Positions 27,122 through 47,557 of a stretch of DNA of 64,000 nt are shown here, one piece after another (position 1 is the stretch's first letter; every line of letters starts with the position of its first letter). The notes under the pieces are model-generated. The model was not told where the DNA came from and did not search any database. It worked only from the letters and a program-made list of their open reading frames with translations. This stretch comes from a phage. The DNA lies in sequence record PZ402305.1; one strand, 5' to 3'. Position numbers and translations under genes: made by a program.

Positions 27122-27595
27122 TTAAAGTTTATAAATAGTCACATCGTGACCTGTTTTTACTAAAGTTTCTTCAATCATCACTTCAATGATAGCCCAATTA
27201 CCTCCTGCCAACCCTGCTCCAATCATAGGTAAGCCGATCTTACATTTTTGGTCACGGAGAAGCAAATCGTTAGCCATAGCTATTAGTGCATCGTAAAGTG
27301 CATCATAGTCCAACTGACGACCTTTAGCATTGTATCCGTAACGGTATTGCCCGTATAGATTATATACCAAAGGGTCTGATTGTTCGTCTGGCACCCCTAA
27401 ACTAAAACAACCTAGTTTACTTTGATCACCAGCCATTGTGTCTAAGTCTGCTGCATATGCGTAAGGAAATGCTTGTTTGATTTGTGGGGCAATACCTGCC
27501 CCCATATTACACATACAGTTGCAACAATGAGCAATAACAGTTACTTCACCTGCTTTAGCGGCATCAATAAGATTACCTGTTTTCATTTTAAGCAT
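27122..27595 (-). CDS. macro-domain-like protein (ADP-ribose binding/processing)
   Basis: Start moved to ATG at 27595 (RBS taaggag, avoids overlap); GNLIDAAKAG.VTVIAHCCNC...GAGIA aligns with macro motif GDIT...VIVNAAN...GGGV.GAI; C-terminal IGLPMIGAGLAGGNW like macro P-loop. Confidence 0.5.
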   Translation of the reverse strand: MLKMKTGNLIDAAKAGEVTVIAHCCNCMCNMGAGIAPQIKQAFPYAYAADLDTMAGDQSKLGCFSLGVPDEQSDPLVYNLYGQYRYGYNAKGRQLDYDALYDALIAMANDLLLRDQKCKIGLPMIGAGLAGGNWAIIEVMIEETLVKTGHDVTIYKL

Positions 27596-27608
27596 TTTTA
27601 GCTCCTTA

Positions 27609-28436
27609 TTACAGAATGTGTTGTTTTGTGTAACGATCCAAGAATTCAAAGTTTTCAGCATACTTTGAAATTCGGTTGTAACCTTCTCCCAAGCATCCAA
27701 AGAAAAGTTGCTCTACATAGTAATGTGGCAATTGGCTAAGAATGATTTTGAAGTCTTCATGATTTTGGCCCATAAGATACTTAATAGGACGAACAAGACA
27801 CTGTGCATCACGTTCTTCATTAATCATTTTAACAAACGCTTCTGGTGTATTAATGTAGTTAAAATTCAGTTTAGCTTCGGTATCTGCTTGATTACCTTCA
27901 TATTTTGCAAAATACAGGAAGTAAACATCATTTTTAACTTGATTTTCATTAAGGATCTCAATCAGTTTGTCTTCATGCGTTCCAGTGATATTTACATCAT
28001 CAATGAATACAAGCTTCTTATCACCCCAGAATTCTTTGTTACAGTAGAATGTATCCCCATCAATAAGTTTCTTACGACTAGCTTTATCCAAGAAACCATA
28101 ATCGTTGATATAGCTAACTTTACGATGAATAATGTCCAGTTCTGCTGAACGACCTTGATCATATTGTGCTTGCAACATATTAAAGTAATTAATAAAATGA
28201 TCTGTCATCATTGTTGCAGCATTATGCACATGGTTGTAAGGAGAAGGAATGATAACAAATTGTTCCCCAATATGTTTCATTGCCACTTGAGCAAAAAACT
28301 GAAGTGCCAATTCTTTACCCATACGACGCGCAGCTTGGTTACTACCAAATTTCAATTTTGAATAATCTTGGATATCAAAAGTAGCAGTTTCCAGGTCATC
28401 AAATTTATTTGCAAAAATTTGAGTTTGATTACGCAT
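27609..28436 (-). CDS. phosphoribosyltransferase (type I PRTase fold)
   Basis: KLVFIDDVNITGTHE matches PRPP-binding motif (hhhhDD..TGGT). Confidence 0.55.
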   Translation of the reverse strand: MRNQTQIFANKFDDLETATFDIQDYSKLKFGSNQAARRMGKELALQFFAQVAMKHIGEQFVIIPSPYNHVHNAATMMTDHFINYFNMLQAQYDQGRSAELDIIHRKVSYINDYGFLDKASRKKLIDGDTFYCNKEFWGDKKLVFIDDVNITGTHEDKLIEILNENQVKNDVYFLYFAKYEGNQADTEAKLNFNYINTPEAFVKMINEERDAQCLVRPIKYLMGQNHEDFKIILSQLPHYYVEQLFFGCLGEGYNRISKYAENFEFLDRYTKQHIL

Positions 28437-29085
28437 TTACAATTTCTCCTCTTTTAAGTTTCTCTAGTAAGTCGTTAGGGTTCTTAATATGACAGAAGTT
28501 AAACCCTAAGTCAACACATTTTCCATCATATTCTTCACTATCGCCTACGTGCAACACTTCGTGCCCTAACAGAGGGATCGGAGAATACGTGAGCGTGCGA
28601 GCAAAGAATCGCGGATCTGGTTTACAAAGTAAAGCTTCATCCGAGAAATGGGTGAACTCAAAACAATTCCAACTATCAAACTTACAAGCACGACGCAGAA
28701 TATCCCCTGATATGAAGTTGGTATTGCTCTTAATACTCAAATCATAACGCCCAGAAAGATACAGCAAGTACATCGGCAGATCTACGGCTACGTGTGGTGG
28801 AAACTTAAGAAACCACTGTTCACACTCGAAACGAAGCTTTGCAGACTTCCAAGGCGTTATCCCAAGTTCAGAACCAAGTCTTTCCCAGGCGTATGCTGCA
28901 CACTCGGCTTTGCCTTGAAGTGCTGCATTATCCAGTTCCTTTTTGATCTTTTTATAAGCTGCTCTTGCTTCAACTTCCGTAATATCTCCATATTTTGCGA
29001 TAGTCCAGGCTCGCATGTCTGCGTAATTGGAGTTTGCTGTGATCAGTGTGTTCCATACATCAAAAGAGATATGTTTAATAGTCAT
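28429..29085 (-). CDS. HAD-superfamily-like hydrolase
   Basis: N-terminal ISFDVWNTL (HAD motif I-like, variant) and C-terminal VGDSEEYDG (motif IV-like). Confidence 0.4.
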   Translation of the reverse strand: MTIKHISFDVWNTLITANSNYADMRAWTIAKYGDITEVEARAAYKKIKKELDNAALQGKAECAAYAWERLGSELGITPWKSAKLRFECEQWFLKFPPHVAVDLPMYLLYLSGRYDLSIKSNTNFISGDILRRACKFDSWNCFEFTHFSDEALLCKPDPRFFARTLTYSPIPLLGHEVLHVGDSEEYDGKCVDLGFNFCHIKNPNDLLEKLKRGEIVNA

Positions 29086-29086
29086 A

Positions 29087-29692
29087 TTAAGCCCACCATG
29101 CGTCTAAGTTAAGATTACTGTCCACTACCACTTGTTCTATGTGGTAGCCTTTTATCTGTATCCCACTGTTCAAGAGCATATCATACGCTTCATTGAAACG
29201 CAACTTATCTTCTGCGGAATATAAGCGAGCATTATAAAATCGGTAATCAATTTCTTCAGCATTAGAAGAAATACGGAAGAAGTTTGTTTCTACTTCGGGA
29301 TCACTTGCTGAAGTCTTAATGTGAACTTCTCCATAATTTTCTTTACTTAGATCCATGAAAAGAACACAGGCAACATGTTTAAACATTCGTTCCAGTTTGT
29401 AACGAACAACATTGAAACCTGCATTCTCAAGTTTTTCTACACACTGCAACATTAAAGTAGTGTCGAGATCGCTTTGATACTTTGTTAACATACGATCACG
29501 TTGAGACTTTGTATCCCGATGTAAATCAATTGTTGTGCATTTGGCACCAATAATCTTAGCTGCTTTCATCAACTCTTCAGAACTAACGTTAGATAAAGTA
29601 AGATGAAAATGGGCTTTCCACACTTTTTTAGCAGGGACACCAAAAGATTTATCCCCACTATTCGGCATGTTGACTACTACACTATGTTGCAT
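29087..29692 (-). CDS. hypothetical protein
   Basis: 201 aa ORF adjacent to HAD/PRTase genes. Confidence 0.5.
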   Translation of the reverse strand: MQHSVVVNMPNSGDKSFGVPAKKVWKAHFHLTLSNVSSEELMKAAKIIGAKCTTIDLHRDTKSQRDRMLTKYQSDLDTTLMLQCVEKLENAGFNVVRYKLERMFKHVACVLFMDLSKENYGEVHIKTSASDPEVETNFFRISSNAEEIDYRFYNARLYSAEDKLRFNEAYDMLLNSGIQIKGYHIEQVVVDSNLNLDAWWA

Positions 29693-29707
29693 TACTTATC
29701 TCCTCAC

Positions 29708-29932
29708 TTAAAATGGAAGTCTTTGAAGTTCATCTCCTCCGATATCAAGTAATTTAGCAACATCTCGATCAGAAAGCAACTCTTTTCTTTGTAAAATATC
29801 CACAAGGGTTGCAAGAATGTCCTTAACGTCCCGATCACTGTTCTTCAAAAGTTCTCCTGCCGTCCCTACTCTATCTCCTACAGCAAAATATGTAACCATG
29901 AAACCTCCTAAGTTAATCTGATTGCCAACCAC
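29708..29932 (-). CDS. hypothetical protein
   Basis: 74 aa ORF. Confidence 0.4.
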   Translation of the reverse strand: MVGNQINLGGFMVTYFAVGDRVGTAGELLKNSDRDVKDILATLVDILQRKELLSDRDVAKLLDIGGDELQRLPF

Positions 29933-30383
29933 TTGCCGTTTTGGTCCATAATCTTTGATTATCTGACCCTCTGAAAGGTTTTGTAGTTGGATTGTTTATT
30001 TCATACTTTCCGTCTACAATAATGTCAACAAGATTTTTAATATACAAAGGCACTTCCTCAAAAGTATATCCTGTATACACCATTATATCTTTGCTTGACC
30101 CATAAACATCTCTAACCTTTTCTATAAGGTTTTTAACATTGTAAATATTCTGCGGATCTAATGGCTCTCCTCCTAAAATTGTTAAACCTTTTACAAACGG
30201 TCTTGACAAATCTTTTAAAACTTGCTCTACATTTTCGTGAGTAAACGGTTTCCCATAAGAATAAGACCAGGCTTTTTGGTTAAAACAGCCACGACAACCG
30301 TGGCTACAACCACTAACCCAGAGTGAGCACCTAACTCCCTCGCCATTAATAAGATCTACAGGTTCATATCCTGCAAAATTCAA
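29913..30383 (-). CDS. nrdG: anaerobic ribonucleotide reductase activating protein (radical SAM)
   Basis: CSHGCRGCFN (CxxxCxxC radical-SAM cluster motif) near N-terminus; 156 aa; directly downstream of nrdD. Confidence 0.8.
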   Translation of the reverse strand: MNFAGYEPVDLINGEGVRCSLWVSGCSHGCRGCFNQKAWSYSYGKPFTHENVEQVLKDLSRPFVKGLTILGGEPLDPQNIYNVKNLIEKVRDVYGSSKDIMVYTGYTFEEVPLYIKNLVDIIVDGKYEINNPTTKPFRGSDNQRLWTKTASGWQSD

Positions 30384-32194
30384 AGATGTTTCTCCCTTTG
30401 CAAAACTTCCTGCATTTTACCTTTGTTGTAAGGGCGTGAATTAGGGGCAGAAAGATACCCTGACACACGTCTAACTACAGAAATAGTTTCTTCTTCATGG
30501 TTGCCACAATCAGGACACTCAAACCCTTTAGCCGTTGCCTTAAATTCTCCATGAAAACCACACTTAAAGCATTGATCCACGGGCTGATTAATACCAAAAT
30601 AGTGAATATGTTCATAAGCGTAGTCTACTAAAGTCTCCAAAGCTTCTAAGTTATTCTTTAAGTTTGGTGTTTCGACATAACTTATGTTACCACCATTACT
30701 AATCTGTGCAAAACCTGCTTCATAATCCCATTTTTCAAAAGGATTTGTTACCAGCCATACAGGTTGATGAAAAGAGTTAGTAAGATAGTCTCTTTCTACC
30801 AAACCTGGGTATTTTTCATTTAAAGCTGTTGCAAACTTATAGCACAAGGATTCTGCTGGAGTTCCATAGAGACTAAACGCCAGCTTAGATCGTTCTTTAA
30901 ACACAGCACACACATCTTTCATATGTTGCAGAATGCTTTTACCAAGTTCCTTTTTATCTTTTTCTTCTGGATAAAGGATTTCCAAAGCTTCGGCAAGACC
31001 TACATAACCAATACTAATAGAAGCATAACCACCTTCAAACAAAACACCAATTTCATCATTGGCATTTAAACGCGCTAAAGCCCCTTCCATGAAAAGAATA
31101 GGGTTTTCAGATGCTTTGGTATGTCTGATACGGTTTACACGTAGCATGTGAGCATCATAGGCTATCTCCATATGTTTATTAAGAAGATCGGTGAAAGATT
31201 CTCCTTTACTTCTCGCTTCCGCAGCGATCAGAGGTAAGTTGATAGAAACTACTCCAAGGTTGAATCGTCCATCGTATTTTTCTCCTTGTTCGGTGGCATA
31301 GTACGACAAAAAGGAACGACAACCCATACTCGTAACAGTACCATCTGCTGATCCCGTAACTTCTTTGTTCAAAGGAACAGAAATAAAATCTGGATAAATA
31401 CGATCAGCACAACATGCCAAAGCTTGTTGCTTAAGATCATAGTTAGGATCACTAGGTTTCATGTTAACACCTTCTTGTAAAAAGAAAATAACTTTAGGGA
31501 ATACAGGCGTTACATGATCTTTGCCTAGACCGTTACTATGCACTTTAAGATAGTTGGCTGTGATCATTCTGCCAAAAACAGAGGTATCCAGACCCATACT
31601 GATTGTAATAAAAGGAGATTGTCCATTAACACTCATTAAAGTATTAACCTGATACAAGAGAGTTTGCATAGCATCGTATACATCTTGTTCGGTCATTTCT
31701 AGGGCTTCTTTCCTTGCATAACAACCGTAGCGACGTTTGGTTATCTCCATGTTTTTAAGGAAACTAGCTTCAACATAAGGACTAAGACCTTTATCAATGT
31801 GCGCACACGTCTGACCTCCATACTGACTGGAGGCAACAGCTTGGATGATTTGAGTTAGCACTGTGGTAGCTACTCCAATAGATTTTGGTTTTTCTATCTG
31901 TGCAGCACCGATCTTAAAACCATTTTCTAACATATCTTGATAATTAACAAGACAACAGTTTGTAAGAGGAGAGAGCAGATAATCCAAGTCGTGAATATGT
32001 CCAAAACCTTCTGTATGCCATTCTGACAAGCTTTTTGGCAGTATCTGTGTCATTGCCATGTGTTTGCTTAAAATCCCCGCCAAGAGATCCCTGTGCGTGT
32101 TAACGAGGTGGGAAGGTTTGTTTGCATTCTCTCTAGTGTATGTTTCTGAAGTGCGATCTAAAAAAGAAAAAACATCTTGGTACAAATCTTTCAT
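30380..32194 (-). CDS. nrdD: anaerobic ribonucleoside-triphosphate reductase (class III)
   Basis: 604 aa; C-terminal zinc ribbon CFKCG...CPDCG and glycyl-radical motif RRVSGYL. Confidence 0.85.
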   Translation of the reverse strand: MKDLYQDVFSFLDRTSETYTRENANKPSHLVNTHRDLLAGILSKHMAMTQILPKSLSEWHTEGFGHIHDLDYLLSPLTNCCLVNYQDMLENGFKIGAAQIEKPKSIGVATTVLTQIIQAVASSQYGGQTCAHIDKGLSPYVEASFLKNMEITKRRYGCYARKEALEMTEQDVYDAMQTLLYQVNTLMSVNGQSPFITISMGLDTSVFGRMITANYLKVHSNGLGKDHVTPVFPKVIFFLQEGVNMKPSDPNYDLKQQALACCADRIYPDFISVPLNKEVTGSADGTVTSMGCRSFLSYYATEQGEKYDGRFNLGVVSINLPLIAAEARSKGESFTDLLNKHMEIAYDAHMLRVNRIRHTKASENPILFMEGALARLNANDEIGVLFEGGYASISIGYVGLAEALEILYPEEKDKKELGKSILQHMKDVCAVFKERSKLAFSLYGTPAESLCYKFATALNEKYPGLVERDYLTNSFHQPVWLVTNPFEKWDYEAGFAQISNGGNISYVETPNLKNNLEALETLVDYAYEHIHYFGINQPVDQCFKCGFHGEFKATAKGFECPDCGNHEEETISVVRRVSGYLSAPNSRPYNKGKMQEVLQREKHL

Positions 32195-32294
32195 TATTAA
32201 TCCTTATTTTGTGAGTAGAACTATTATTCTACCTCTTCTAACCGAAAAAAGCTTTGAGGAAAATCAAAAAAGGCGCAAAGTGCGCCTTTAAGTT

Positions 32295-33683
32295 TTATCG
32301 TTTGGAGAGGAATTGTCTTCCCATGATCTTACCGTTCTTTACAGCGGTCCCATCGTGTCCATTATAATCCCAAGTTCCATCAATGTTACGCAAGAAGCTA
32401 TCACGAACAGTGTAGGCTTTACCGTTCTCTACTTTACTTTCTTCAACAATGATTGCCATAACAAGCTTATTTTCAATTTCGGTAGTAACCGATTCTTTAA
32501 TACCCTCTGTAACTTCACGATCATATTGGATATAAACTCGCTCCTCGGTCACTTGCACGTCTACCACATTTTTAAATGTGTATGTCTGCTGTGTAGTGTA
32601 AAGGACACGAACAACACTCTTCTTACCTACTGGCGGCTTCTTACGAGGCTTACGGTAACGTGGTTTAGGGTTGTTAGTTGGAAGCCAACCAACAATATCC
32701 CGATCATATCCAACATGACCCCAAGTGAAATGCGTAGCCGATCCACTATCCGTAGTTCCGTCACGAAAGAGAACTTCTACGTGACCACCACAAGGGCGGT
32801 GTCCACCATTATTATAGTTGTATTTTGCCGTGCGCGGGAGAATGAAGTATTCTTTAATCGCCCACTCTTCCAGATTGTCGATATTCCAAGTGAATACTGT
32901 TCCCTTAGCAACATCTGTTTGACCATTGTTGAAGCGAACCTGCACGAAATCTTCTGAAGGCATAACACCTGTGTTCGGCAGATATTCAAATGCAGTATCT
33001 TCCGCTACAAACTGTTCTTCCTCTTGCTCCTCAATACTTGGCACAGGCGCAGCTTCATCGTATTTCGCAGCAAACATATTTTTAAATTCTTGGGCCGTGA
33101 CTTCTACAAGGCCGCGATCACCAGTAGCAGCAGAGTGTGGGCGTGGTAAATCCCCAACTTCAATATGCATTGCATCTAAACCTGCTTGACGATCAAAGAA
33201 GATAACCTTGCGGAATTGTTTATCTTTATATTGTGGTAGTTCATACATACTTGGGTCGATTGTCTTTAAACGTTCAGCATCTTCTGGCTTCCAGAAGCTT
33301 TTACCTGTTGCAAATCTAAAGTCTACCAGTAGTTTAACAACATCTCCTAATGATAAACTATCTGCATCTACGAAAACGTCTTCGATTCCCAATAACCCTG
33401 ATTTCTTAAGAATCAGATCTAACATGTAACCTCCTGTGGTTTGTTCTGCGTCTGGATAACGATCAACACTGGTGCTGGTTACACCGTTTATTTCACCAGT
33501 GGAGGCATTGTAGGAAATATATGGGAAGGTCATATCGTTCATTGCAAAATCACCTGAACAGGTTGGATCATCTTCTCCCTCCCAGCCATACACCTTCACA
33601 ATACCTTCACACAATTTGTCATACACACCAGCGCGACGTGCTGCTTCAGCAACTTCCTGTTTACGGGCAAATTTATTAATCAT
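32295..33683 (-). CDS. hypothetical protein
   Basis: ORF track 32295..33713; ATG at 33683 has perfect AGGAGG RBS and overlaps upstream stop (ATGATTAA). Confidence 0.5.
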   Translation of the reverse strand: MINKFARKQEVAEAARRAGVYDKLCEGIVKVYGWEGEDDPTCSGDFAMNDMTFPYISYNASTGEINGVTSTSVDRYPDAEQTTGGYMLDLILKKSGLLGIEDVFVDADSLSLGDVVKLLVDFRFATGKSFWKPEDAERLKTIDPSMYELPQYKDKQFRKVIFFDRQAGLDAMHIEVGDLPRPHSAATGDRGLVEVTAQEFKNMFAAKYDEAAPVPSIEEQEEEQFVAEDTAFEYLPNTGVMPSEDFVQVRFNNGQTDVAKGTVFTWNIDNLEEWAIKEYFILPRTAKYNYNNGGHRPCGGHVEVLFRDGTTDSGSATHFTWGHVGYDRDIVGWLPTNNPKPRYRKPRKKPPVGKKSVVRVLYTTQQTYTFKNVVDVQVTEERVYIQYDREVTEGIKESVTTEIENKLVMAIIVEESKVENGKAYTVRDSFLRNIDGTWDYNGHDGTAVKNGKIMGRQFLSKR

Positions 33684-34233
33684 GATTCCTCCTGTTAATT
33701 GCCATAGATGCACGAGGTTCGGCTATGGCTGTTGCATAAATATATGGATGACCTTGTGGGGACAATCTTGTTCCGAATGACCCTAATTCTAAACCATTCA
33801 TGTCTTCCACGTCAAGCCCTATTTCTGTTTCTACAATTCTTGTTTGGACTTTGTAGTAGGTCCAGAAGAAGTATCGCATTTCTTCGGCATACTCTTTCAC
33901 TTCACCAAAGCTGGGATAGAACTCAATCAACTCCAGTTTCAAGAAGATGTTGAAGTGAGAATCATCCAACACTTCCTCTGTGCGGTAACATGGTGTCAGG
34001 GCCATGTAGGGATGACCAGCGATAAACTCGTAGCCATCCTTTTCCATTTGCAAGAATGATTGCTCGGCACTGGCAACATAAAACTTCCCATTAGGATGCC
34101 CCAAAGGAGCATCTTCTTTGCCAGGTGGCAGTGTGAATGCCAAAATATCTGCATCCACTAAATAAGGAACATCTAACATTTCAGCAAAGCGTCCATAACT
34201 CTGGATGGCTTCGGCAATCACACCTGTGTTCAT
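33676..34233 (-). CDS. hypothetical protein
   Basis: 185 aa ORF; no confident family. Confidence 0.5.
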   Translation of the reverse strand: MNTGVIAEAIQSYGRFAEMLDVPYLVDADILAFTLPPGKEDAPLGHPNGKFYVASAEQSFLQMEKDGYEFIAGHPYMALTPCYRTEEVLDDSHFNIFLKLELIEFYPSFGEVKEYAEEMRYFFWTYYKVQTRIVETEIGLDVEDMNGLELGSFGTRLSPQGHPYIYATAIAEPRASMAINRRNHD

Positions 34234-36612: not shown

Positions 36613-36966
36613 TTAGTTTACATCGTTTAAAGCATTACCAATCTTTAAGATAATAACATCGTTAAGAGCTTCTTCTCCATTAAGGCCAGAGAAAGCAGGA
36701 GTAACGAAAGTTACCATGTAATAATGGTCTTCTTGTAGGATTGCGATAACGCCGTCTAGTTTAACATCTCCTGTGAAACGAAAAACTTTCAACTTTTGTT
36801 CTAAAGGAAGATCTCCTTCAACATTTAAAACCATATCTCCGACACCAAACTTTTCTGCCCCGATGTAGATGTAAGCTTGGTCCTCTTTTTTATGATAATA
36901 CAGTGTTGCTTGTTTGTCTTGTAGTGTTGTGATACCAAACACATCCACATCAATAATATTTTTCAA
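36613..36966 (-). CDS. hypothetical protein (probable TTG start)
   Basis: ORF track 36613..37023 overlaps upstream gene by 61 nt; TTG at 36966 preceded by GGGAGGAG RBS removes overlap. Confidence 0.35.
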   Translation of the reverse strand: MKNIIDVDVFGITTLQDKQATLYYHKKEDQAYIYIGAEKFGVGDMVLNVEGDLPLEQKLKVFRFTGDVKLDGVIAILQEDHYYMVTFVTPAFSGLNGEEALNDVIILKIGNALNDVN

Positions 36967-37331
36967 AAATTCTCCTCCCAAATCCAATAATTGTCTACAT
37001 AAGTAGGATGCCTTTTGTCCCACTCTTTTCTAGCCCAAGCTACGGCTGCTACCAATACATCTCCATGACAAGGTTGAGGTGAGCAGAAGCAAACTAAATC
37101 TTTCCCTTCTAACTCTAATAAATCTTCAAGAGTGATCTTACCACAACGAATTTGCTCCCACAACCACTCTTTATACCTTTGTATAGTTGATCCTCGTGGT
37201 TCATCATCTTTTAACTTAAAAGGGTTTGCAAACTTGGAGGCTTTTAGCCCCATGTGTGGCATTGCTCTACCAATATAAACAGCACCTTCTGGGATTGTTT
37301 TGCCTAAATGGTAAAAGTTTAATACCTTCAT
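36963..37331 (-). CDS. DUF4326-like protein
   Basis: 122 aa; CFCSPQPCHGDVL segment resembles DUF4326 family common in phages. Confidence 0.4.
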   Translation of the reverse strand: MKVLNFYHLGKTIPEGAVYIGRAMPHMGLKASKFANPFKLKDDEPRGSTIQRYKEWLWEQIRCGKITLEDLLELEGKDLVCFCSPQPCHGDVLVAAVAWARKEWDKRHPTYVDNYWIWEENF

Positions 37332-42407: not shown

Positions 42408-42760
42408 AAATTGTACACGATGAAATTCAAATAGAAGAAAGTGACCTGATGGATTTGGATGCAGCTTTGGGGAAGGTAATCTATGCAGGAATTAAAGCCT
42501 TCCGTGAGAAGGCAAACAATAGCACGTTTGTCATGATCCCCACTAAACTGATGCGTGTTTTGTATCCAAATAGAAGTGCGCCGTATACAGATGAAGAAGA
42601 GGAGACAGGTAGAAGAGAGTGGTTAAATATTTTAGAAAAGATGGAGAATGCTTTTATTGATAGTGGTAATCCAGAAATCGTGTATGCTGAAGATCAAAGG
42701 AAGGCACGATTAGAGGGCCGTCTTTTATTCGCTAGTTATTTTGATAATCTTTGGAGCTAA
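42404..42760 (+). CDS. hypothetical protein
   Basis: 118 aa ORF. Confidence 0.5.
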   Translation: MKIVHDEIQIEESDLMDLDAALGKVIYAGIKAFREKANNSTFVMIPTKLMRVLYPNRSAPYTDEEEETGRREWLNILEKMENAFIDSGNPEIVYAEDQRKARLEGRLLFASYFDNLWS

Positions 42761-42939
42761 ATATGTCTGAATTCTTCACAATGGCTTTCTTAGGGATCTA
42801 TCTGATTATTAGTGCTGTTGGCTTAATCATGTCTCTAATAGAGGAAATGGGAATTAAGTGGAATTGTGTATTCGGTACAGCTCTTATGCTCACTCCAGTT
42901 TGGATTTACATTTGCAAATCGGTTGAACTAATTGGTTAA
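42751..42939 (+). CDS. small membrane protein
   Basis: 62 aa, two hydrophobic segments. Confidence 0.4.
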   Translation: MELNMSEFFTMAFLGIYLIISAVGLIMSLIEEMGIKWNCVFGTALMLTPVWIYICKSVELIG

Positions 42940-42949
42940 TGGAGGTAAT

Positions 42950-43288
42950 ATGTTTAGTAAAGAAATGAGAGAGGTAATCGCTACTCTGGTAGTTGATCAT
43001 GGTGTTGAAGTTGAGCGTCACGTTTGGAAAGATGAGCCTCCTTTCTTTGATTTGGCATCACGGGCTAAAAGTCACATGTATCTCCTTGAAGATGATAAGG
43101 ATTTTATTCTGCGTATGCGTTATGATCGAGAGTTTAGAATTCCTCTTGACACAGATCCTGATGATGTAGTATTGTGGTTGGCAGAGCATTTCGCATTTAA
43201 CGCTCTACATGGAAGAAGTTTTGGTAATGAACGTTGGGATACCATTTGTCGTAAACATAATATTGAACCAGAATACGGGAGTATGTAA
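42950..43288 (+). CDS. hypothetical protein
   Basis: ATG at 42950 with RBS ggagg. Confidence 0.5.
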   Translation: MFSKEMREVIATLVVDHGVEVERHVWKDEPPFFDLASRAKSHMYLLEDDKDFILRMRYDREFRIPLDTDPDDVVLWLAEHFAFNALHGRSFGNERWDTICRKHNIEPEYGSM

Positions 43289-43539
43289 TGTTAAGCGTTA
43301 AGCCTAAGATGATCAGTGAAGACCAGAAAGATTTCATTTACAAGTGTGGACGAATCTGGAGAGAGTATACCAAGGGTAACGAGGTCGTGGTGGTTACTGA
43401 ACACCAGATTGAAATCTCTGATCTTTTCGGTGATTATTTGCAAGTGATCAAATTAGGCATTGACAGAGGTTTGGTGCAGGTGTTAACATTATCCCAAGTT
43501 GAAGCAGAACACTTAGACAAAATCATTGTCGAATTCTAA
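43288..43539 (+). CDS. hypothetical protein
   Basis: 83 aa ORF. Confidence 0.45.
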   Translation: MLSVKPKMISEDQKDFIYKCGRIWREYTKGNEVVVVTEHQIEISDLFGDYLQVIKLGIDRGLVQVLTLSQVEAEHLDKIIVEF

Positions 43540-43552
43540 GAGGAGAAAGAAT

Positions 43553-43717
43553 ATGATCTCTTTAGAATCAATAGCTTTTAAGAAGGGGTATACCGCAGGG
43601 TTCAAGTTTGGTATGTTTAATAAAGTAAATCCATATTGTCCAAAGACACACAAAAAGGAATTCGAAGAATGGGAAGATGGATTTTCTAAAGGCTACCAGG
43701 CAAAGGGTTGGTTGTAA
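43553..43717 (+). CDS. hypothetical protein
   Basis: ATG at 43553 with RBS aagaggag. Confidence 0.4.
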   Translation: MISLESIAFKKGYTAGFKFGMFNKVNPYCPKTHKKEFEEWEDGFSKGYQAKGWL

Positions 43718-43726
43718 GGAGAGAAT

Positions 43727-43891
43727 ATGATTTTAAACTTCATCATCAACTTGTGTTTGACATTGGGACTACTTTGTGCAATAGTATCCCCTCTGGTTGG
43801 TGAATATTGTTCTGAACTGGCGATGTTTATAGTTCTTGGTGCGGCTATTGCTAATATGTTTGTCGCTGCGATTTGTATGTTGTGGGAATAG
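43727..43891 (+). CDS. small membrane protein (54 aa, below ORF-track cutoff)
   Basis: RBS taaggagag 6 nt before ATG; two hydrophobic helices (MILNFIINLCLTLGLLCAIVSPLV...FIVLGAAIANMFVAAICMLW). Confidence 0.4.
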   Translation: MILNFIINLCLTLGLLCAIVSPLVGEYCSELAMFIVLGAAIANMFVAAICMLWE

Positions 43892-43902
43892 GAGGGAAGT
43901 TT

Positions 43903-44259
43903 ATGAAAAAATTAATCTTAGCCACATTGCTGGCTACCGTAAGCTTCACCACTTACGCTCAAAAATTTGTAGCAGTTAAAACAGATATTGGTAAAGATGT
44001 TGTGATCACAGGCAACAAGTTTTACTATACACCTGGAAATGGTGTTCTAGAAGAGTGTAAAGATGTTGAGGCATATACAGGAAAAGAAGATAACACGGAA
44101 CGTCCTTTTTATTCGATTATAGCCACTTGCAAAAATGAAATAGTAGCTATTAAACAGTATAAAGATGCCCCTGGAGGAGAATACTTATTAGTCAAGAATA
44201 TTAAGAGTGAAAAAACTGCAAAGTTTACAGTAATTATTTTAAAAGGAGAAACGTTCTAA
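43903..44259 (+). CDS. secreted hypothetical protein
   Basis: ATG at 43903 after RBS taggaggg; signal peptide MKKLILATLLATVSFTTYAQ. Confidence 0.5.
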   Translation: MKKLILATLLATVSFTTYAQKFVAVKTDIGKDVVITGNKFYYTPGNGVLEECKDVEAYTGKEDNTERPFYSIIATCKNEIVAIKQYKDAPGGEYLLVKNIKSEKTAKFTVIILKGETF

Positions 44260-45398
44260 TGAAATACACTATTTTTGGAGATGTGGCTGTTGTAAATAAG
44301 GAATATGGTGTTGAAGCTAATAAACTTCCTGCTGGAGTTTGGGTTGTCAACTGCGATCCGCACGGTAACTACTCTTTAGTGCGTGGCGAAAGTTTCTCTC
44401 TTCCGAACACTCTTTATGGGGAAACTAAAGACCGCGCCGCACATGTTATTAAAACATTTGCTCGTCGTAGTAAAGAAGGTAAAAATACTGGGGTGTTACT
44501 GACAGGCACAAAAGGCAGTGGTAAGACGATGTTAGCTAAACTAATTAGCATGTCCCTAATGTCCACAGAAGGTTTAGGTATTCCAACCATTTTGGTTACA
44601 CAGCCTTACACAGATGCTGGCTTCTTAGAATTTATGAGTAAAATTACAGATCGTGCTGTTGTTTTATTTGACGAATTTGATAAAGTGTACGCTAAGAAAG
44701 AAGATCAGGAAGCACTGTTGACCTTGTTGGATGGAACAGGAAGTGGGAATAAACTTTACATCCTAACTAAAAATAGTGGTTATATCTCGGAATATTTTGT
44801 AAACCGTCCTAGTCGTATCTATTACAGTTTCAATTACGATAAACTGTCTAGTGAAACTATGTTAGATTACTTGGATAAGAACTTGGTAAATAAAAAACAC
44901 GTAGATAACTTCCAACGTTTATGGGATGTTAGCACAGAGTTGTCTTTCGATGTTATTCAAGGTATTGTAGAAGAATTGAATTTCTATCCAAAAATGACTT
45001 TTAAAGAATGTCTTGAAATGATGGGTATTTCTTTAGGCAACGATGCTAAATGGAATGTGGCTTCTATCGTAGCTAATGGCAAAACGCTGAAGGTGAATTG
45101 GATCAATAACTGGCACGACTTCACCCCTACTAAGTTTTTGTCGGGTGCTTGTTCCCTGAACATCTATCTACAAAGTTTGAAAGATGATGAAGTGGAAGCA
45201 ATGGAAACCAACAGTTATGTTATCCTGGATGAAGATGGTGATCCACATATTGATCTATGTGCAACGGCTGATGGTCTAACTTGTGATCTGATTGAAGGTG
45301 GTAAGATTCTGGTTATGAGCACTACACCAGGAAACACTCTGCGAGTGGTGCTGGAGCCTGTAACACAACGTTCCACTACCCTGGGTAGCGTATTCTGA
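44259..45398 (+). CDS. AAA-family ATPase
   Basis: Walker A GTKGSGKT and Walker B VVLFDEFD. Confidence 0.6.
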   Translation: MKYTIFGDVAVVNKEYGVEANKLPAGVWVVNCDPHGNYSLVRGESFSLPNTLYGETKDRAAHVIKTFARRSKEGKNTGVLLTGTKGSGKTMLAKLISMSLMSTEGLGIPTILVTQPYTDAGFLEFMSKITDRAVVLFDEFDKVYAKKEDQEALLTLLDGTGSGNKLYILTKNSGYISEYFVNRPSRIYYSFNYDKLSSETMLDYLDKNLVNKKHVDNFQRLWDVSTELSFDVIQGIVEELNFYPKMTFKECLEMMGISLGNDAKWNVASIVANGKTLKVNWINNWHDFTPTKFLSGACSLNIYLQSLKDDEVEAMETNSYVILDEDGDPHIDLCATADGLTCDLIEGGKILVMSTTPGNTLRVVLEPVTQRSTTLGSVF

Positions 45399-45414
45399 TA
45401 CAGTACAAATAGCT

Positions 45415-45438
45415 AAACCCGCTTCGGCGGGTTTTGTT
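45415..45438 (+). terminator. rho-independent terminator
   Basis: aaacccgcUUCGgcgggtttt stem-loop with T-run after ATPase gene. Confidence 0.7.
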
Positions 45439-45467
45439 ATATTGATTTCAGTTTAACAGGGAGATAA

Positions 45468-46466
45468 TTGTTAGATATGCCAGTAAAGAAGAGTATTGAA
45501 CAATATATTGAAGAGTGTCAACCTATTGCTGCTGCTAAAGGGATTGAGATTATTGGAATTGTTGAGCCGTTTACAGGACAACACACGAAAATGATCAATC
45601 GTTGTCAGTATGCTCATGAATGGAACACTACAACATTTAAAAACTTTAAAACTGGTCGTGCTGGTTGTCCTGTCTGTGCAATTGGGAAAGGATTTGGGAA
45701 AGGAGGTAAGACAGACGATCAGCACATAAAAGATTTCATTAACACAGGAAAGTTTAAACCTGGTACCATTTTCACCAATACAGGCAAACGTAAAGGGAGT
45801 CATATTCTCTGGATGGTTGAATGTCCTGTTTGTTCTCATGATGAATACGTACAAGCAGGAGTGTGTGATGGTAAATTTTACATTGCAGGGAACGATCTTA
45901 AAAAAGGGATTATCCCTTGTCGTTGTACTAGAGTTTACCGTTATACAAAAGATCAGATCACTTACAAGGTGAGAAAAGGTTTAGAAAGTAAAGGATATAT
46001 CTGGATAGAGTGGATTAGTAAACCTTCCTCAACAGGAGAGTTTAAATATGGATGTAAGGATCACGGGGAGCAAATAGGGAATGCTGACCACTTATTACAT
46101 AAGGGGCGTGGTTGTCCGAAGTGTAAAGGGCATACACAACAACAGGCATACATCAACTATATCTACGATGAACAAAATCTTCTCTGTGCTTTGAAGTTTG
46201 GTATTGCCAATAGTAGTGATCGCCGTATCAAAGAACAAAATAGTCATAATGTGTTTACTATGAAACAGAGCCAAGTGTGGCACTTCCCTACTGTGAAGCA
46301 ATGCAAAGATGCAGAAAAGCGTTGTAAGCGTGTCCTTCACACGGAAGCAGTGAGCAAATATTCTATGCCAGATGGCTACACAGAAACAGTAGAGTTATCT
46401 TGCATGGCCTCAATACAAAACATTTATAAACTTTATGGTGGAACATTACAGGAGGAAACATGTTAG
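45468..46466 (+). CDS. Cys-rich (multi zinc-ribbon) hypothetical protein
   Basis: Repeated CxxC pairs (CPVCA, CPVCS, CPKCKGH); start either TTG 45468 or ATG 45477. Confidence 0.5.
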   Translation: MLDMPVKKSIEQYIEECQPIAAAKGIEIIGIVEPFTGQHTKMINRCQYAHEWNTTTFKNFKTGRAGCPVCAIGKGFGKGGKTDDQHIKDFINTGKFKPGTIFTNTGKRKGSHILWMVECPVCSHDEYVQAGVCDGKFYIAGNDLKKGIIPCRCTRVYRYTKDQITYKVRKGLESKGYIWIEWISKPSSTGEFKYGCKDHGEQIGNADHLLHKGRGCPKCKGHTQQQAYINYIYDEQNLLCALKFGIANSSDRRIKEQNSHNVFTMKQSQVWHFPTVKQCKDAEKRCKRVLHTEAVSKYSMPDGYTETVELSCMASIQNIYKLYGGTLQEETC

Positions 46467-46825
46467 TTGACGTTCAAATTATGCGCAACGAAAGAATGGA
46501 CTTCTTTGAAGCAGTAGAGAAACATCTGATCAGATGGGACTATGAATTTGTTCCTGCTGGATGTGGACCAGTAGAGCATTTAGCGGAAGACGACGATGTA
46601 TACATGATCATTCGTCAAGTGTACCAGACAGACCAGTGTGAAGAAACTCCCGAACTAATTTTGTTTGAGTGCAAAGATCTTGCAAAATATTTTGACTATG
46701 GCGGAAAAGAGGGTCATAATCTCTCCAGATACAATAAACGCCTACTTATCTTAGACTACATGCGGAACAACAAACACAAACTAATCGACGCAGACGCAGT
46801 TTATGGCTACTGGTGGATGGATTAA
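46460..46825 (+). CDS. hypothetical protein
   Basis: 121 aa ORF. Confidence 0.45.
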   Translation: MLVDVQIMRNERMDFFEAVEKHLIRWDYEFVPAGCGPVEHLAEDDDVYMIIRQVYQTDQCEETPELILFECKDLAKYFDYGGKEGHNLSRYNKRLLILDYMRNNKHKLIDADAVYGYWWMD

Positions 46826-46838
46826 CAAAGGAGAAACT

Positions 46839-47018
46839 ATGGCACGTTTAGCAGATCATGAAATCTTTAAACCTATTCTGAACCACTATGATGAACTTAA
46901 AGCAGTGTTGGATTGTTATAAAGAGGATGAAGAACGCTTGGAAGTCAATCTTAAGATAGTTCTGATGAAAGCTTTTCAAGACGGGCAAGCTAAAGTCTTA
47001 GAAGGTATGAAAAAATGA
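46839..47018 (+). CDS. hypothetical protein
   Basis: ATG at 46839 after RBS aaaggagaa. Confidence 0.4.
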   Translation: MARLADHEIFKPILNHYDELKAVLDCYKEDEERLEVNLKIVLMKAFQDGQAKVLEGMKK

Positions 47019-47557
47019 GAATAACTGACGAATATGTATTCTTCTTTTCACATAAAGATGTTTTTAGTAATTGGTATATTGCACCCTTTACAGAAACCGA
47101 ACCAGGTTACAATCAGACATTTAATTGTGTCGAACAATACATGATGTGGCGTAAAGCTTTGCTTTTTAATGACCACAACACTGCACAGGCTATTCTGACT
47201 CATAGTTTGATACGGAAAGATGAGAAGATCCAAGCTTATTACAAACGTATGGGTAGGGCAGTGTCGGATTTTGATAACAACGTATGGGAAGAGAACCGTG
47301 AGCGTATTGTTATGCGAGGTTTATGCTTGAAATATGTACAGAATCCAGATTTGTATGCAGACTTACACCTTTACCAATACAAAACGTTTGTTGAAGCAAG
47401 CCCCTACGATAAGGTTTACGGAATTGGAATGGGGATGTATGAACCAGGGGTGCTAAACCCTGCCACCTGGAAAGGGCAGAATCTTTTAGGCAAATATCAT
47501 AACAAACTGATCGAAATACTTTTCCCAGACAAAATACCGCAAAGACGATATTTGTGA
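47015..47557 (+). CDS. NADAR-family protein (YbiA-like)
   Basis: FFFSHKDVFSNWY...FNCVEQYMMWRKA and C-terminal EASPYDKVYGIGMG align with E. coli YbiA pattern (FYS...FSNF...EHYFQAQKF ... E.T.ND.YWGDG). Confidence 0.65.
   Translation: MRITDEYVFFFSHKDVFSNWYIAPFTETEPGYNQTFNCVEQYMMWRKALLFNDHNTAQAILTHSLIRKDEKIQAYYKRMGRAVSDFDNNVWEENRERIVMRGLCLKYVQNPDLYADLHLYQYKTFVEASPYDKVYGIGMGMYEPGVLNPATWKGQNLLGKYHNKLIEILFPDKIPQRRYL

What the first reader, a model, noticed from the sequence alone, without database searches (positions are those of the whole stretch)
27122..47557. Macro-domain and NADAR proteins: possible ADP-ribosylation reversal
The window encodes both a macro-domain-like protein (27122-27595) and a NADAR/YbiA-like protein (47015-47557). 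Macro domains are known to remove ADP-ribose from thymidine-modified DNA (DarG-type), and NADAR proteins have been reported to reverse guanine ADP-ribosylation. A phage carrying both could be countering DNA ADP-ribosylating defence toxins of the DarT type, or processing ADP-ribose-derived metabolites from the Ter/PRTase module.
Basis: partly seen in the sequence, partly recalled or inferred. Interest (0 to 1): 0.6.

Follow-up and report, generated by a model that had tools for sequence, protein, structure and literature searches.

The report
Phage erasers of DNA ADP-ribosylation
This phAPEC8-like E. coli phage carries two separate small enzymes, a macrodomain and a NADAR protein, whose close relatives in other phages strip ADP-ribose off DNA to defeat the bacterial DarTG defence systems, so the finding is real but belongs to a counter-defence that is already described.

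Summary
Both genes exist exactly where stated. The window is a Phapecoctavirus (phAPEC8-like) genome.

**NADAR (47015-47557, +).** It scores 124 bits against Pfam. It keeps every ADP-ribose-binding and catalytic residue defined in solved NADARs. It is the positional ortholog (59% identity, conserved flanking genes) of the NADAR of BASEL phages Bas60-62. That protein, AdfN^Bas60, was shown in 2025 to neutralise DarT1 and to rescue phages on DarTG1 hosts.

**Macro (27122-27595, -).** It is borderline in Pfam but secure by sequence and by fold. It belongs to the phage Tk.4 family and the TARG1/DarG/SCO6735 structural class. T4 Tk.4 was named AdfM in a 2025 preprint because T4 needs it on DarTG2 hosts. 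The active site is SCO6735-like: glutamine replaces the DarG/TARG1 lysine. SCO6735 hydrolyses thymidine-linked ADP-ribose.

**How they relate.** The two genes lie 19 kb apart in different transcription units, so they share a theme, not a locus.

**The macro's neighbours.** Its place in a HAD/PRTase_3/TerC gene row is conserved only within Stephanstirmvirinae. Elsewhere the macro and the HAD-PRTase_3 pair occur without each other, so a Ter-metabolite role is unlikely.

**Verdict.** These are new members of a known kind, of modest interest.

The parts
27122..27595 (-). Macrodomain gene (157 aa), Tk.4/AdfM-family single-domain ADP-ribosylglycohydrolase of the TARG1/DarG/SCO6735 (ALC1-like) class. 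Predicted active-site residues: His23, Asn26, Gln83 and the loop Gly126-Ala-Gly128-Leu-Ala-Gly-Gly.
   Evidence: ORF. Pfam Macro 23.4 bits. phrog_335 2.4e-55. PDB phmmer SCO6735 3e-13. AF2 pLDDT 93.9. Foldseek TARG1 7.9e-12, DarG 1.2e-10. PADLOC DarG model 3.1e-10, macro part only. 37% identity to T4 Tk.4. H23, N26, Q83, G126 and G128 invariant in 31 homologs.
27602..27607 (-). Shine-Dalgarno AAGGAG, 6 nt upstream of the macro ATG. It lies just after the TAA stop of the PRTase_3 gene (27611-27609).
   Evidence: Read directly from the sequence.
47015..47557 (+). NADAR gene (180 aa), ortholog of AdfN^Bas60. Predicted ADP-ribose-binding and catalytic residues: Glu40, Lys47, Arg81, Trp91, Arg95, Glu127, Asp132, Tyr135. 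The start ATG overlaps the TGA of the upstream small ORF (ATGA).
   Evidence: ORF. Pfam NADAR 124.2 bits. 8BAU 4e-15 with residue mapping (against PMC11543638). 59% identity to bas61_0107. Flanking genes conserved. Start-codon overlap read.
47614..47649 (+). Terminator-like imperfect hairpin (GGCTCCTACA...TGTAGAGAGCC) followed by a T-rich tail. It ends the rightward transcription unit whose last gene is the NADAR.
   Evidence: Read from the sequence. The same site is annotated as an ARNold terminator in phAPEC8. The simple consensus scan did not report it.

Best explanation
The phage encodes two independent, single-domain 'orphan antitoxin-like' enzymes that erase base-linked ADP-ribose from its DNA during infection.

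The NADAR protein is an AdfN. It most likely hydrolyses the N-glycosidic bond between ADP-ribose and the N2 of guanine, which undoes the modification made by DarT1 of DarTG1 systems. The macrodomain protein is an AdfM-like member of the Tk.4 family. It most likely removes ADP-ribose from the N3 of thymine, the modification made by DarT2 of DarTG2 systems. Its active site resembles SCO6735: Gln83, held by Asn26, would position the distal ribose, rather than the lysine used by DarG and TARG1.

Each gene sits in its own transcription unit and has its own ribosome-binding site or translational coupling. Neither needs the other. Together they would cover the two known DarT specificities.

Shown here: gene integrity, family and fold, conservation of functional residues, orthology or homology to the tested proteins, and conservation across the genus. 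Inferred: the substrates, the timing of expression and the phenotype in this phage.
For: NADAR:
- Pfam 124 bits.
- All residues that contact ADP-ribose or are catalytically required in P. nicotianae and E. coli C7 NADAR are conserved or conservatively replaced: E43/K50/R79/W89/R93/E125/D130/W133 correspond to E40/K47/R81/W91/R95/E127/D132/Y135 (with PMC11543638).
- 59% identity to Bas61 bas61_0107. The upstream neighbours are also conserved: AAA ATPase 64%, 330-aa endonuclease-like protein 55%.
- The Bas60 gene is 97% identical in DNA to the Bas61 gene.
- AdfN^Bas60 neutralises DarT1 on its own and restores RB69, T5 and Bas25 on DarTG1, but not T5 on DarTG2 (PMC11825919).
- All NADAR subtypes tested hydrolyse G-ADPr and none hydrolyses T-ADPr (PMC11125620).

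Macro:
- ALC1-like/TARG1/DarG class by sequence and by fold.
- Matches the macro half of the PADLOC DarG model as well as T4 Tk.4 does: 38 against 36 bits.
- 37% identity to T4 Tk.4; Tk.4 scores 4.4e-33 against a profile of the window's family.
- T4 tk.4 was the single hit that became conditionally essential on DarTG2, and a clean knockout was sensitised (preprint).
- SCO6735, the closest solved relative, cleaves T-ADPr on ssDNA and rescues cells from DarT. Its Q85A mutant lost all activity and N27S almost all (PMC9411070).
- The corresponding Gln83 and Asn26 are invariant in 31 homologs, and the mobile loop carries 2-4 basic residues in most members.
- A second, lysine-type phage macro (PhiKZ AdfM) was shown biochemically to remove T-ADPr (PMC13309987).

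Both genes are conserved across about 70 Phapecoctavirus genomes. T4 likewise carries one gene of each kind.
Against: - Nothing has been assayed for this phage or this genus, and no paper links Phapecoctavirus to DarTG.
- The macro is only 37% identical to T4 Tk.4. Tk.4's mechanism is inferred from genetics plus fold, not from biochemistry.
- The macro protein is acidic overall (pI 5.0, net charge -4), whereas SCO6735's efficiency on DNA was ascribed to an electropositive surface.
- Activity in vitro does not guarantee protection in cells: E. coli YbiA and T4 gp30.3 hydrolyse G-ADPr but did not rescue DarT1 toxicity when expressed alone.
- The NADAR also passes NCBIfam's cut-off for the riboflavin-intermediate N-glycosidase domain (113 against 73.7 bits).
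- A large comparative survey argued that most phage Macro and NADAR domains target soluble ADP-ribose derivatives rather than macromolecular adducts (PMC9503650).
- TARG1-like macros, including SCO6735, also act on protein-linked ADP-ribose and on U-ADPr in RNA, so DNA need not be the only or the main substrate.
Confidence: 0.6

Rival explanations
1. One or both enzymes act on soluble ADP-ribose derivatives rather than on DNA adducts. Candidates are NAD-derived immune signals (Thoeris-type cyclic ADPR or His-ADPR), ADP-ribose-1''-phosphate or its cyclic precursor from tRNA repair, and O-acetyl-ADP-ribose. The macro would then be the 'phosphatase' or 'deacetylase' its database labels suggest.
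For: - The comparative survey in PMC9503650 proposes this as the main role of phage Macro and NADAR domains.
- Macro homologs in other phages sit next to NAMPT and PRPP synthetase (Pakpunavirus; a jumbo-phage-like contig with Nudix, NAMPT and SIR2), or next to RNA ligase or polynucleotide kinase.
- Poa1p, an ADP-ribose-1''-phosphate phosphatase, is among the structural neighbours.
- A DUF4326 gene, linked in that survey to ADPr-phosphate processing, lies at 36963-37331.
Against: - The experimentally tested relatives act on DNA adducts in vivo: AdfN^Bas60, T4 Tk.4, SCO6735.
- SCO6735, TARG1 and DarG rank above Poa1p by sequence (3e-13, 7.5e-7 and 4.4e-5 against 3.7e-4).
- No NAMPT, Nudix, SLOG, KptA or RNA ligase domain was found among the more than 60 window ORFs scanned with Pfam.
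Confidence: 0.15
2. The macro is a working part of the phage's Ter-associated biosynthetic module. In this reading it trims or de-ribosylates the nucleotide-like product made by the adjacent PRTase_3 and HAD phosphatase.
For: - HAD (28429-29085), PRTase_3 (27609-28436), the macro, a small membrane protein and TerC form a tight co-directional row, with overlaps or 13-nt gaps.
- The same order HAD-PRTase_3-macro-small ORFs-TerC-TelA is kept in the sister genus Justusliebigvirus, although the macro is only about 49% identical there.
- PRTase and HAD enzymes of Ter systems are proposed to make a nucleoside or nucleotide signal (PMC7824862).
Against: - The HAD-PRTase_3 pair occurs in four independent phage lineages (Xanthomonas XaC1, Rhizobium TM30, Caulobacter CcrColossus, Brevundimonas Gurke) with no macro within 7 kb.
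- The macro family occurs in about 3000 phage records, against 157 records with PRTase_3.
- Macro homologs as close as the Justusliebigvirus one (48%, a Klebsiella phage) have no PRTase nearby.
- The macro has its own strong Shine-Dalgarno sequence.
- The description of phage Ter systems that I could read lists no macro component.
Confidence: 0.07
3. The NADAR is a YbiA-type housekeeping N-glycosidase that destroys reactive riboflavin-pathway intermediates (or another small N-ribosyl compound) in the infected cell.
For: - NCBIfam TIGR02464 'riboflavin biosynthesis intermediates N-glycosidase' scores 113.1 bits against a cut-off of 73.7.
- Glutamate sits at the position (E125 of the Phytophthora enzyme) that marks the YbiA subfamily.
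- Several GenBank records call it 'GTP cyclohydrolase II' or 'YbiA-like N-glycosidase'.
Against: - The Bas61 AdfN-type protein passes the same model equally well (109.8 bits), so the model does not discriminate.
- The authors who tested AdfN^Bas60 place it among non-YbiA, non-DarG1 bacterial NADARs.
- No riboflavin gene or RibA fusion was found in the window.
Confidence: 0.08
4. The enzymes mainly reverse ADP-ribosylation of RNA or protein rather than DNA. Examples are uracil-, guanine- or cytosine-ADPr on RNA made by other host ARTs, or protein marks.
For: - SCO6735 and TARG1 remove U-ADPr from RNA, and SCO6735 also removes Glu/Asp-linked protein ADPr.
- NADAR- and YbiA-type enzymes remove G- and C-ADPr from RNA as well as from DNA.
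- The authors of the AdfN work suggest that such factors may detoxify other ADP-ribosylating defences not yet discovered.
Against: - The only in vivo phenotypes known for relatives are against DarTG1 and DarTG2.
- No ART gene was detected in the window, so reversal of a phage-made mark has no support here.
Confidence: 0.1

Closest known systems
AdfN^Bas60, the anti-DarT factor NADAR of BASEL phages Bas60/61/62 (Justusliebigvirus, Stephanstirmvirinae); Johannesman et al., Nat Commun 2025 (PMC11825919)
   Same: - Same phage subfamily.
- 59% amino-acid identity over the whole domain.
- Same position after a conserved AAA ATPase and a 330-aa endonuclease-like gene.
- Same catalytic and ADPr-binding residues, including Glu at the E125-equivalent position.
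- Same size, with no N-terminal extension.
   Different: - 41% of residues differ.
- Two extra small ORFs (46460-47018) lie between the endonuclease-like gene and the NADAR here.
- The C-terminal 15-20 residues are unrelated.
- Untested in this genus.
T4 Tk.4 = AdfM, the anti-DarT factor macrodomain; HIDEN-SEQ preprint, bioRxiv 10.1101/2025.11.20.689424
   Same: - Same phage macro family (phrog_335).
- Single-domain protein of about 155 aa.
- Shared motifs IAH.CNC, NLY.Q and IGAG..G.W.
- Gln at the position of the DarG/TARG1 lysine.
- Equal match to the macro half of the PADLOC DarG model.
   Different: - Only 37% identity.
- T4 has a shorter mobile loop without basic residues, whereas the window protein has the long SCO6735-like loop with Arg85, Lys91 and Arg93.
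- Different genomic neighbourhood: tk/vs region in T4, HAD/PRTase_3/TerC row here.
SCO6735 of Streptomyces coelicolor (PDB 5E3B), a thymidine-ADPr DNA hydrolase; PMC9411070
   Same: - Best sequence match among solved structures (3e-13).
- Gln in place of the catalytic Lys, the Asn that locks it, the Gly-rich phosphate-binding loop without TARG1's Asp, and a mobile loop aligned without gaps to SCO6735's extended loop.
   Different: - About 28% identity.
- Cys24 where SCO6735 has Val25 (a backbone role, so possibly irrelevant).
- Basic loop residues at different positions.
- Acidic overall, whereas SCO6735 is described as strongly electropositive around the cleft.
- A cellular, SOS-linked protein rather than a phage gene.
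DarG (DarG2) antitoxin macrodomain and PhiKZ-type AdfM (PMC13309987)
   Same: Same macro class and predicted substrate (T-ADPr on ssDNA). Foldseek gives T. aquaticus DarG 1.2e-10, TM 0.79.
   Different: - Those enzymes use a catalytic lysine (K80 in DarG, K78 in PhiKZ AdfM); the window protein has Gln83.
- DarG has a C-terminal DarT-binding domain and sits next to darT; neither is present here.
DarG1 NADAR antitoxins and T4-type AdfN (gp30.3)
   Same: Same superfamily and predicted reaction (guanine-N2 de-ADP-ribosylation). The Glu and Lys corresponding to E88 and K95 of E. coli C7 NADAR are conserved.
   Different: - DarG1 has Asp and T4-type phage NADARs have His where this protein has Glu127.
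- DarG1 has a basic N-terminal extension that is absent here.
- AdfN^T4 worked only in T-even infections, whereas the Bas60 type worked alone.

Membership tests
Macrodomain superfamily (Pfam PF01661) | Macro fold (three-layer alpha/beta/alpha) and profile match | tested here: met
   Pfam 23.4 bits against a cut-off of 22. AF2 model pLDDT 93.9. More than 200 Foldseek PDB hits with E<=1e-3; all 50 listed but one (a de novo designed hydrolase) are macrodomains.
ALC1-like / TARG1 / DarG class of macrodomains | Closest sequence and structural neighbours are TARG1, DarG, SCO6735 and BT1257 rather than MacroD, PARG or viral Mac1 | tested here: met
   phmmer: SCO6735 3e-13, BT1257 1e-9, TARG1 7.5e-7, TaqDarG 4.4e-5. 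Foldseek top 12 are TARG1, BT1257 and DarG.
DarG (DarG2) antitoxin | Catalytic lysine (K80 of T. aquaticus DarG, K84 of TARG1) | tested here: not met
   The aligned position is Gln83. It is invariant Gln in 31 homologs.
DarG (DarG2) antitoxin | C-terminal DarT-binding domain; full-length match to DarG models | tested here: not met
   The protein is 157 aa, macro domain only. The PADLOC DarG match covers profile positions 1-144 of 329. NCBIfam antitoxin_DarG scores 35.3 bits against a cut-off of 250.
DarG (DarG2) antitoxin | Encoded next to a darT ADP-ribosyltransferase gene | tested here: not met
   The neighbours are PRTase_3, HAD, a small membrane protein and TerC. No ART domain was found in any scanned ORF of the window.
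SCO6735-type thymidine-ADPr hydrolases | Gln at the Lys position, the Asn that positions it (Asn27), a Gly-rich phosphate loop without Asp, and the extended mobile loop | tested here: met
   Gln83, Asn26 and G126-A-G128-L-A-G-G are present, and the loop aligns with SCO6735 without gaps (residue roles from PMC9411070).
SCO6735-type thymidine-ADPr hydrolases | Hydrolysis of T-ADPr on ssDNA and rescue from DarT toxicity | not testable with these tools
   Needs a gel-shift assay and a co-expression toxicity assay.
AdfM (T4 Tk.4 family) | Homology to T4 Tk.4 across the domain | tested here: met
   BLASTP 37% identity, 1e-21. Tk.4 scores 4.4e-33 against the family profile. Both fall in phrog_335 and carry 'phosphatase' annotations.
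AdfM (T4 Tk.4 family) | Required for phage growth on DarTG2 hosts | not testable with these tools
   Needs a deletion mutant and plaque assays.
NADAR superfamily (Pfam PF08719) | Profile match, plus the conserved Glu and Lys and the phosphate-binding Arg/Trp residues | tested here: met
   124.2 bits. E40, K47, R81, W91, R95, E127, D132 and Y135 align to E43, K50, R79, W89, R93, E125, D130 and W133 of PDB 8BAU.
AdfN^Bas60-type phage NADAR | Orthology: high identity plus conserved gene neighbourhood in a related phage | tested here: met
   59% identity, 2e-70. Upstream AAA ATPase 64% and endonuclease-like gene 55% identical, in the same order. The Bas60 and Bas62 copies are 97% identical in DNA to the Bas61 copy.
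AdfN^Bas60-type phage NADAR | Neutralises DarT1 and rescues phage on DarTG1 | not testable with these tools
   Shown for the Bas60 protein only (PMC11825919).
DarG1 (DarT1-associated NADAR antitoxin) | Asp at the D171 position (E. coli C7 numbering), a basic N-terminal extension, and adjacency to darT1 | tested here: not met
   Glu127 occupies the equivalent position. The NADAR domain starts at about residue 5-11 of 180, with no extension. No ART gene was found nearby.
T4-type phage NADAR (AdfN^T4, gp30.3) | His at the E125-equivalent position; clusters with T4-like phage NADARs | tested here: not met
   Glu127 (His rule from PMC11543638). tblastn hits in Escherichia phages number only 117, of which 71 are at least 80% identical (Phapecoctavirus-level) and the rest at most 59%, Justusliebigvirus-type in the rows shown. 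The macro query, by contrast, hit 1002 Escherichia phage records, T4-like phages among them.
YbiA-type riboflavin-intermediate N-glycosidase (TIGR02464) | Passes the curated HMM cut-off | tested here: inconclusive
   113.1 bits against a cut-off of 73.7. The AdfN-type protein of Bas61 passes too (109.8 bits), so the model does not separate the two functions.
YbiA-type riboflavin-intermediate N-glycosidase (TIGR02464) | Fusion to, or neighbourhood with, riboflavin biosynthesis genes | tested here: not met
   Stand-alone gene. The neighbours are small hypothetical ORFs, an endonuclease-like gene and an AAA ATPase.

The most novel reading that the evidence does not exclude
The macro is not, or not only, an anti-DarT2 enzyme. 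It would be functionally coupled to the phage's own Ter-type signalling module. Its fixed place between the HAD-PRTase_3 pair and TerC in both genera of Stephanstirmvirinae would then mean that it processes the ribosylated, nucleotide-like product of PRTase_3 and HAD. That would be a macrodomain acting inside a Ter pathway, which has not been described.
Probability: 0.07. Interest if true: 0.6.

Novelty: new member of a known kind. Interest (0 to 1): 0.3.

Why it matters
If the assignment holds, phAPEC8-like phages, which are often proposed for therapy against avian-pathogenic and other E. coli, carry ready-made resistance to both DarTG1 and DarTG2. This bears on predicting host range from genome sequence.

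It would also extend the AdfM concept from T4 and chimalliviruses to a glutamine-type macro subclass found in about 3000 phage records. It would show that the pairing of one eraser for guanine and one for thymine recurs in unrelated myoviruses.

It corrects database labels. 'Phosphatase', 'GTP cyclohydrolase II' and 'YbiA-like N-glycosidase' are inherited names that hide a likely counter-defence role.

It does not open a new question: the mechanism and the concept are already published for relatives.

Tried and rejected
- **Ter systems paper.** I could not retrieve Anantharaman, Iyer and Aravind 2012 by DOI or PMC id. Whether a macro is ever part of cellular Ter modules therefore rests on the summary in PMC7824862.
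- **Survey of PRTase_3 neighbourhoods.** The search for related loci with the single PRTase_3 protein returned only near-identical phage-derived contigs. The one genome-contig scan is spent, so bacterial PRTase_3 neighbourhoods were not surveyed. I used independent phage lineages instead.
- **Closest 'cellular' macro homolog.** The one on a long contig (P0112, 368 kb) looks like a jumbo phage, so it gave no bacterial context.
- **Other NAD/ADP-ribose genes.** Pfam scans of more than 60 window ORFs looked for ART, NAMPT, Nudix, SLOG, KptA and RNA ligase domains. They found only a DUF4326.
- **Migulavirinae preprint.** It looked relevant to phage macro proteins, but its macro is the host ThsA effector.
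- **RNA genes and the terminator.** No tRNA or Rfam family was found in the window. The consensus terminator scan missed the hairpin after the NADAR, which I read by eye and matched to the phAPEC8 annotation.
- **Longer macro reading frame.** I rejected the TTG-started reading (27700) because it overlaps PRTase_3 and homologs start at the ATG.
- **Not run.** I did not predict the NADAR structure or use the representative-library search, because sequence evidence was already decisive.

Full report
**What is there.** The window is a phAPEC8-like myovirus genome (genus Phapecoctavirus, subfamily Stephanstirmvirinae). The macro region is 99.2% identical to phAPEC8 and the NADAR region is 100% identical to phage vB_EcoM-P3322.

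The macro gene (27122-27595, minus strand, 157 aa) starts at an ATG six bases after an AAGGAG, directly behind the stop codon of the upstream PRTase_3 gene. The NADAR gene (47015-47557, plus strand, 180 aa) starts at an ATG that overlaps the stop of a small upstream ORF. It is followed by a terminator-like hairpin at 47614-47649, which is annotated as a terminator in phAPEC8.

The two genes are 19.4 kb apart, on opposite strands and in different transcription units. The span given in the finding is therefore a thematic pairing, not a locus. A profile of the macro family finds only one macro in the window.

**Is the macro call sound?** Pfam alone is marginal: 23.4 bits against a cut-off of 22. 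Other evidence removes the doubt:
- phrog_335 at 2.4e-55.
- phmmer hits to solved structures in the order SCO6735 (3e-13), BT1257, TARG1 (7.5e-7), T. aquaticus DarG (4.4e-5), Poa1p, M. tuberculosis DarG.
- An AlphaFold2 model built on 31 homologs, with mean pLDDT 93.9.
- Foldseek hits led by TARG1 (7.9e-12, TM 0.79/0.88), BT1257 and the DarG macrodomain (1.2e-10).

The protein therefore belongs to the ALC1-like/TARG1/DarG class.

**Macro active site.** The position of the catalytic lysine of TARG1 (K84) and DarG (K80) is occupied by Gln83. TARG1's Asp125 is replaced by Ala in a G-A-G-L-A-G-G loop. This is the arrangement of Streptomyces SCO6735. SCO6735 cleaves thymidine-linked ADP-ribose from ssDNA and rescues cells from DarT. 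Its Q85A mutant lost all activity and its N27S mutant almost all (PMC9411070).

The window equivalents, Gln83 and Asn26, are invariant across 31 homologs of 49-91% identity, as are His23, Gly126 and Gly128. The mobile loop aligns with SCO6735's extended loop without gaps and carries Arg85, Lys91 and Arg93. Most family members have two to four basic residues there, although the proteins are acidic overall; this one has pI 5.0.

**The macro's family and what is known about it.** A tblastn search finds homologs in 2986 phage records. These include T4-like phages, where the gene is tk.4, and also FelixO1-like, Pakpunavirus, CBA120-like and many other phages. Identity to T4 Tk.4 is 37% (1e-21). Tk.4 also has Gln at the key position.

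A 2025 preprint screened a T4 transposon library on a DarTG2 host. It found tk.4 as the single gene that became conditionally essential, confirmed this with a clean knockout, and renamed the gene adfM. The mechanism was inferred from similarity to DarG. Independently, a lysine-type macro of PhiKZ-like phages, also named AdfM, was shown biochemically to remove T-ADPr and to be required on DarTG2 hosts (PMC13309987).

The window protein matches the macro half of the PADLOC DarG model as well as Tk.4 does (38 against 36 bits). It lacks DarG's second domain, and it falls far below NCBIfam's DarG cut-off of 250 bits, scoring 35. It is therefore not a DarG. It is a stand-alone macro of the kind now called AdfM, of the glutamine subclass.

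**The NADAR.** The Pfam match is strong at 124 bits. The alignment to the solved Phytophthora NADAR (8BAU, 4e-15) lets the residues defined in that study be read off (PMC11543638):

| Phytophthora NADAR | Window NADAR |
|---|---|
| E43 | E40 |
| K50 | K47 |
| R79 | R81 |
| W89 | W91 |
| R93 | R95 |
| E125 | E127 |
| D130 | D132 |
| W133 | Y135 |

The glutamate at the E125 position separates this protein from DarG1 antitoxins, which have Asp, and from T4-type phage NADARs, which have His.

The nearest characterised relative is the NADAR of BASEL phages Bas60, Bas61 and Bas62. These phages belong to Justusliebigvirus, in the same subfamily. Identity to the Bas61 copy is 59%. The two upstream genes are conserved in the same order, an AAA ATPase at 64% and an endonuclease-like protein at 55%. 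The Bas60 copy is 97% identical in DNA to the Bas61 copy.

Johannesman et al. showed that AdfN^Bas60 neutralises DarT1 without other phage factors. It restores RB69, T5 and Bas25 on DarTG1 hosts and does nothing against DarTG2. All NADAR subtypes tested so far remove ADP-ribose from guanine and none removes it from thymine.

The window NADAR also passes NCBIfam's 'riboflavin intermediates N-glycosidase' model (113 bits against a cut-off of 73.7). So does the Bas61 protein at 110 bits, which means the label does not discriminate. It explains the 'GTP cyclohydrolase II' annotations in GenBank.

**Does the macro's neighbourhood mean anything?** The macro lies in a minus-strand row: TerD, vWA-TerF, TelA, SprT-like, TerC, a small membrane protein, the macro, PRTase_3, HAD, then NrdG/NrdD. 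The HAD-PRTase_3-macro-TerC order is kept in Justusliebigvirus.

Outside this subfamily the link dissolves:
- PRTase_3 occurs in 157 phage records.
- In four independent lineages (Xanthomonas XaC1, Rhizobium TM30, Caulobacter CcrColossus, Brevundimonas Gurke) the HAD-PRTase_3 pair is conserved, but no macro lies within 7 kb.
- Conversely, macro homologs sit beside RNA ligase (Klebsiella phage, 48% identity), polynucleotide kinase (FelixO1-like), NAMPT and PRPP synthetase (Pakpunavirus), or tk/vs genes (T4).

The adjacency is therefore best read as inherited gene order within one subfamily. I could not survey bacterial Ter loci: the key paper was not retrievable, and the single-protein locus search found only near-identical sequences. 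A small probability therefore remains for a functional link.

**Most likely mechanism.**
- Shown here: two intact single-domain hydrolases with conserved active sites, conserved across about 70 genomes of the genus. One is orthologous and the other homologous to phage proteins with demonstrated anti-DarTG phenotypes.
- Inferred: during infection the NADAR removes ADP-ribose from guanine N2 (DarT1 damage), and the macro removes it from thymine N3 (DarT2 damage) by the SCO6735-type mechanism, in which Gln and Asn position the substrate. This would let replication and transcription of phage DNA proceed.

I put this at about 0.6 overall, higher for the NADAR (about 0.8) than for the macro (about 0.6).

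**Rivals.**
- A role for the macro in the Ter/PRTase pathway.
- A YbiA-type metabolite-repair role for the NADAR.
- RNA or protein substrates, since SCO6735 and TARG1 also remove U-ADPr from RNA and NADAR/YbiA types also remove C-ADPr.

**Novelty and verdict.** No paper in the library connects Phapecoctavirus with DarTG, so these particular proteins are untested. The concept, the enzyme families and even an ortholog are already published, and T4 shows the same pairing of one NADAR and one macro. This is a new member of a known kind.

Its description of the macro as DarG-type needs correcting to Tk.4/SCO6735-type, and its Ter-metabolite alternative is unlikely. Interest is modest (0.3).

Noticed in passing
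window 36963-37331 (-): A 122-aa DUF4326 protein (Pfam 1.1e-21). RefSeq calls the phAPEC8 copy 'ribonucleotide reductase NrdA-like', which has no support. A comparative survey (PMC9503650) reports this rhodanese-phosphatase-like domain fused to Macro, NADAR and SLOG domains in DNA viruses and proposes that it processes phosphates on ADP-ribose breakdown products. It may be a third ADP-ribose-network gene in the window.
   Followed up: partly
window 19203-29085 (-): A phage-borne Ter module: TerD (19203-19805), vWA-TerF (20316-21110), TelA (22506-23618), SprT-like metallopeptidase (23615-24205), TerC (25831-26805), PRTase_3 (27609-28436) and a HAD hydrolase (28429-29085). The overlapping HAD-PRTase_3 pair is the conserved core. 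It recurs in 157 phage records, including Xanthomonas, Rhizobium, Caulobacter and Brevundimonas phages. Its function in phages is unknown; superinfection exclusion has been proposed.
   Followed up: partly
window 45415-47018 (+): A perfect bidirectional terminator hairpin (45415-45434) precedes a 332-aa protein with a CapR-homology domain, a treble-clef zinc finger and a weak MUG113 match, annotated 'endonuclease'. It is 55% identical to bas61_0106, so it is conserved rather than a recent homing insertion. phAPEC8 has a longer version. Two small ORFs (46460-46825 and 46803-47018) lie between it and the NADAR here but are absent in Bas61.
   Followed up: partly
window 47550-48600: Downstream of the NADAR terminator lies an AT-rich stretch (GC 27-32%, 47550-48150), followed by an unusually GC-rich patch (about 50%, 48150-48600). 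The region has few convincing ORFs and no tRNA or Rfam match. It could be a regulatory or replication-related intergenic region. A related study noted an essential intergenic region of about 2 kb in the Vequintavirinae phage Bas54.
   Followed up: no
window 47015-47557; L003 4001-4552: NCBIfam TIGR02464 ('riboflavin biosynthesis intermediates N-glycosidase', equivalog_domain) passes its cut-off for both the window NADAR (113 bits) and the AdfN-type NADAR of Bas61 (110 bits). Automated annotation therefore mislabels anti-DarT NADARs as riboflavin enzymes or 'GTP cyclohydrolase II'.
   Followed up: yes
window 32295-33713 (-), 33676-34233 (-), 29087-29692 (-): Three sizeable ORFs have RefSeq names in phAPEC8 ('ribonucleotide reductase', 'histidyl tRNA synthetase', 'putative hydrolase') but no Pfam or NCBIfam match at E<=0.01. 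Their functions are effectively unknown.
   Followed up: no
L009 5001-5911 (contig JAWVHA010000062.1, 368 kb): A jumbo-phage-like contig carries two adjacent macro genes next to Nudix, NAMPT, HAD, dCMP deaminase and SIR2 genes. One of the macro genes is about 50% identical to the window protein. This is an example of the clustering of NAD/ADP-ribose genes that is absent from the window.
   Followed up: no
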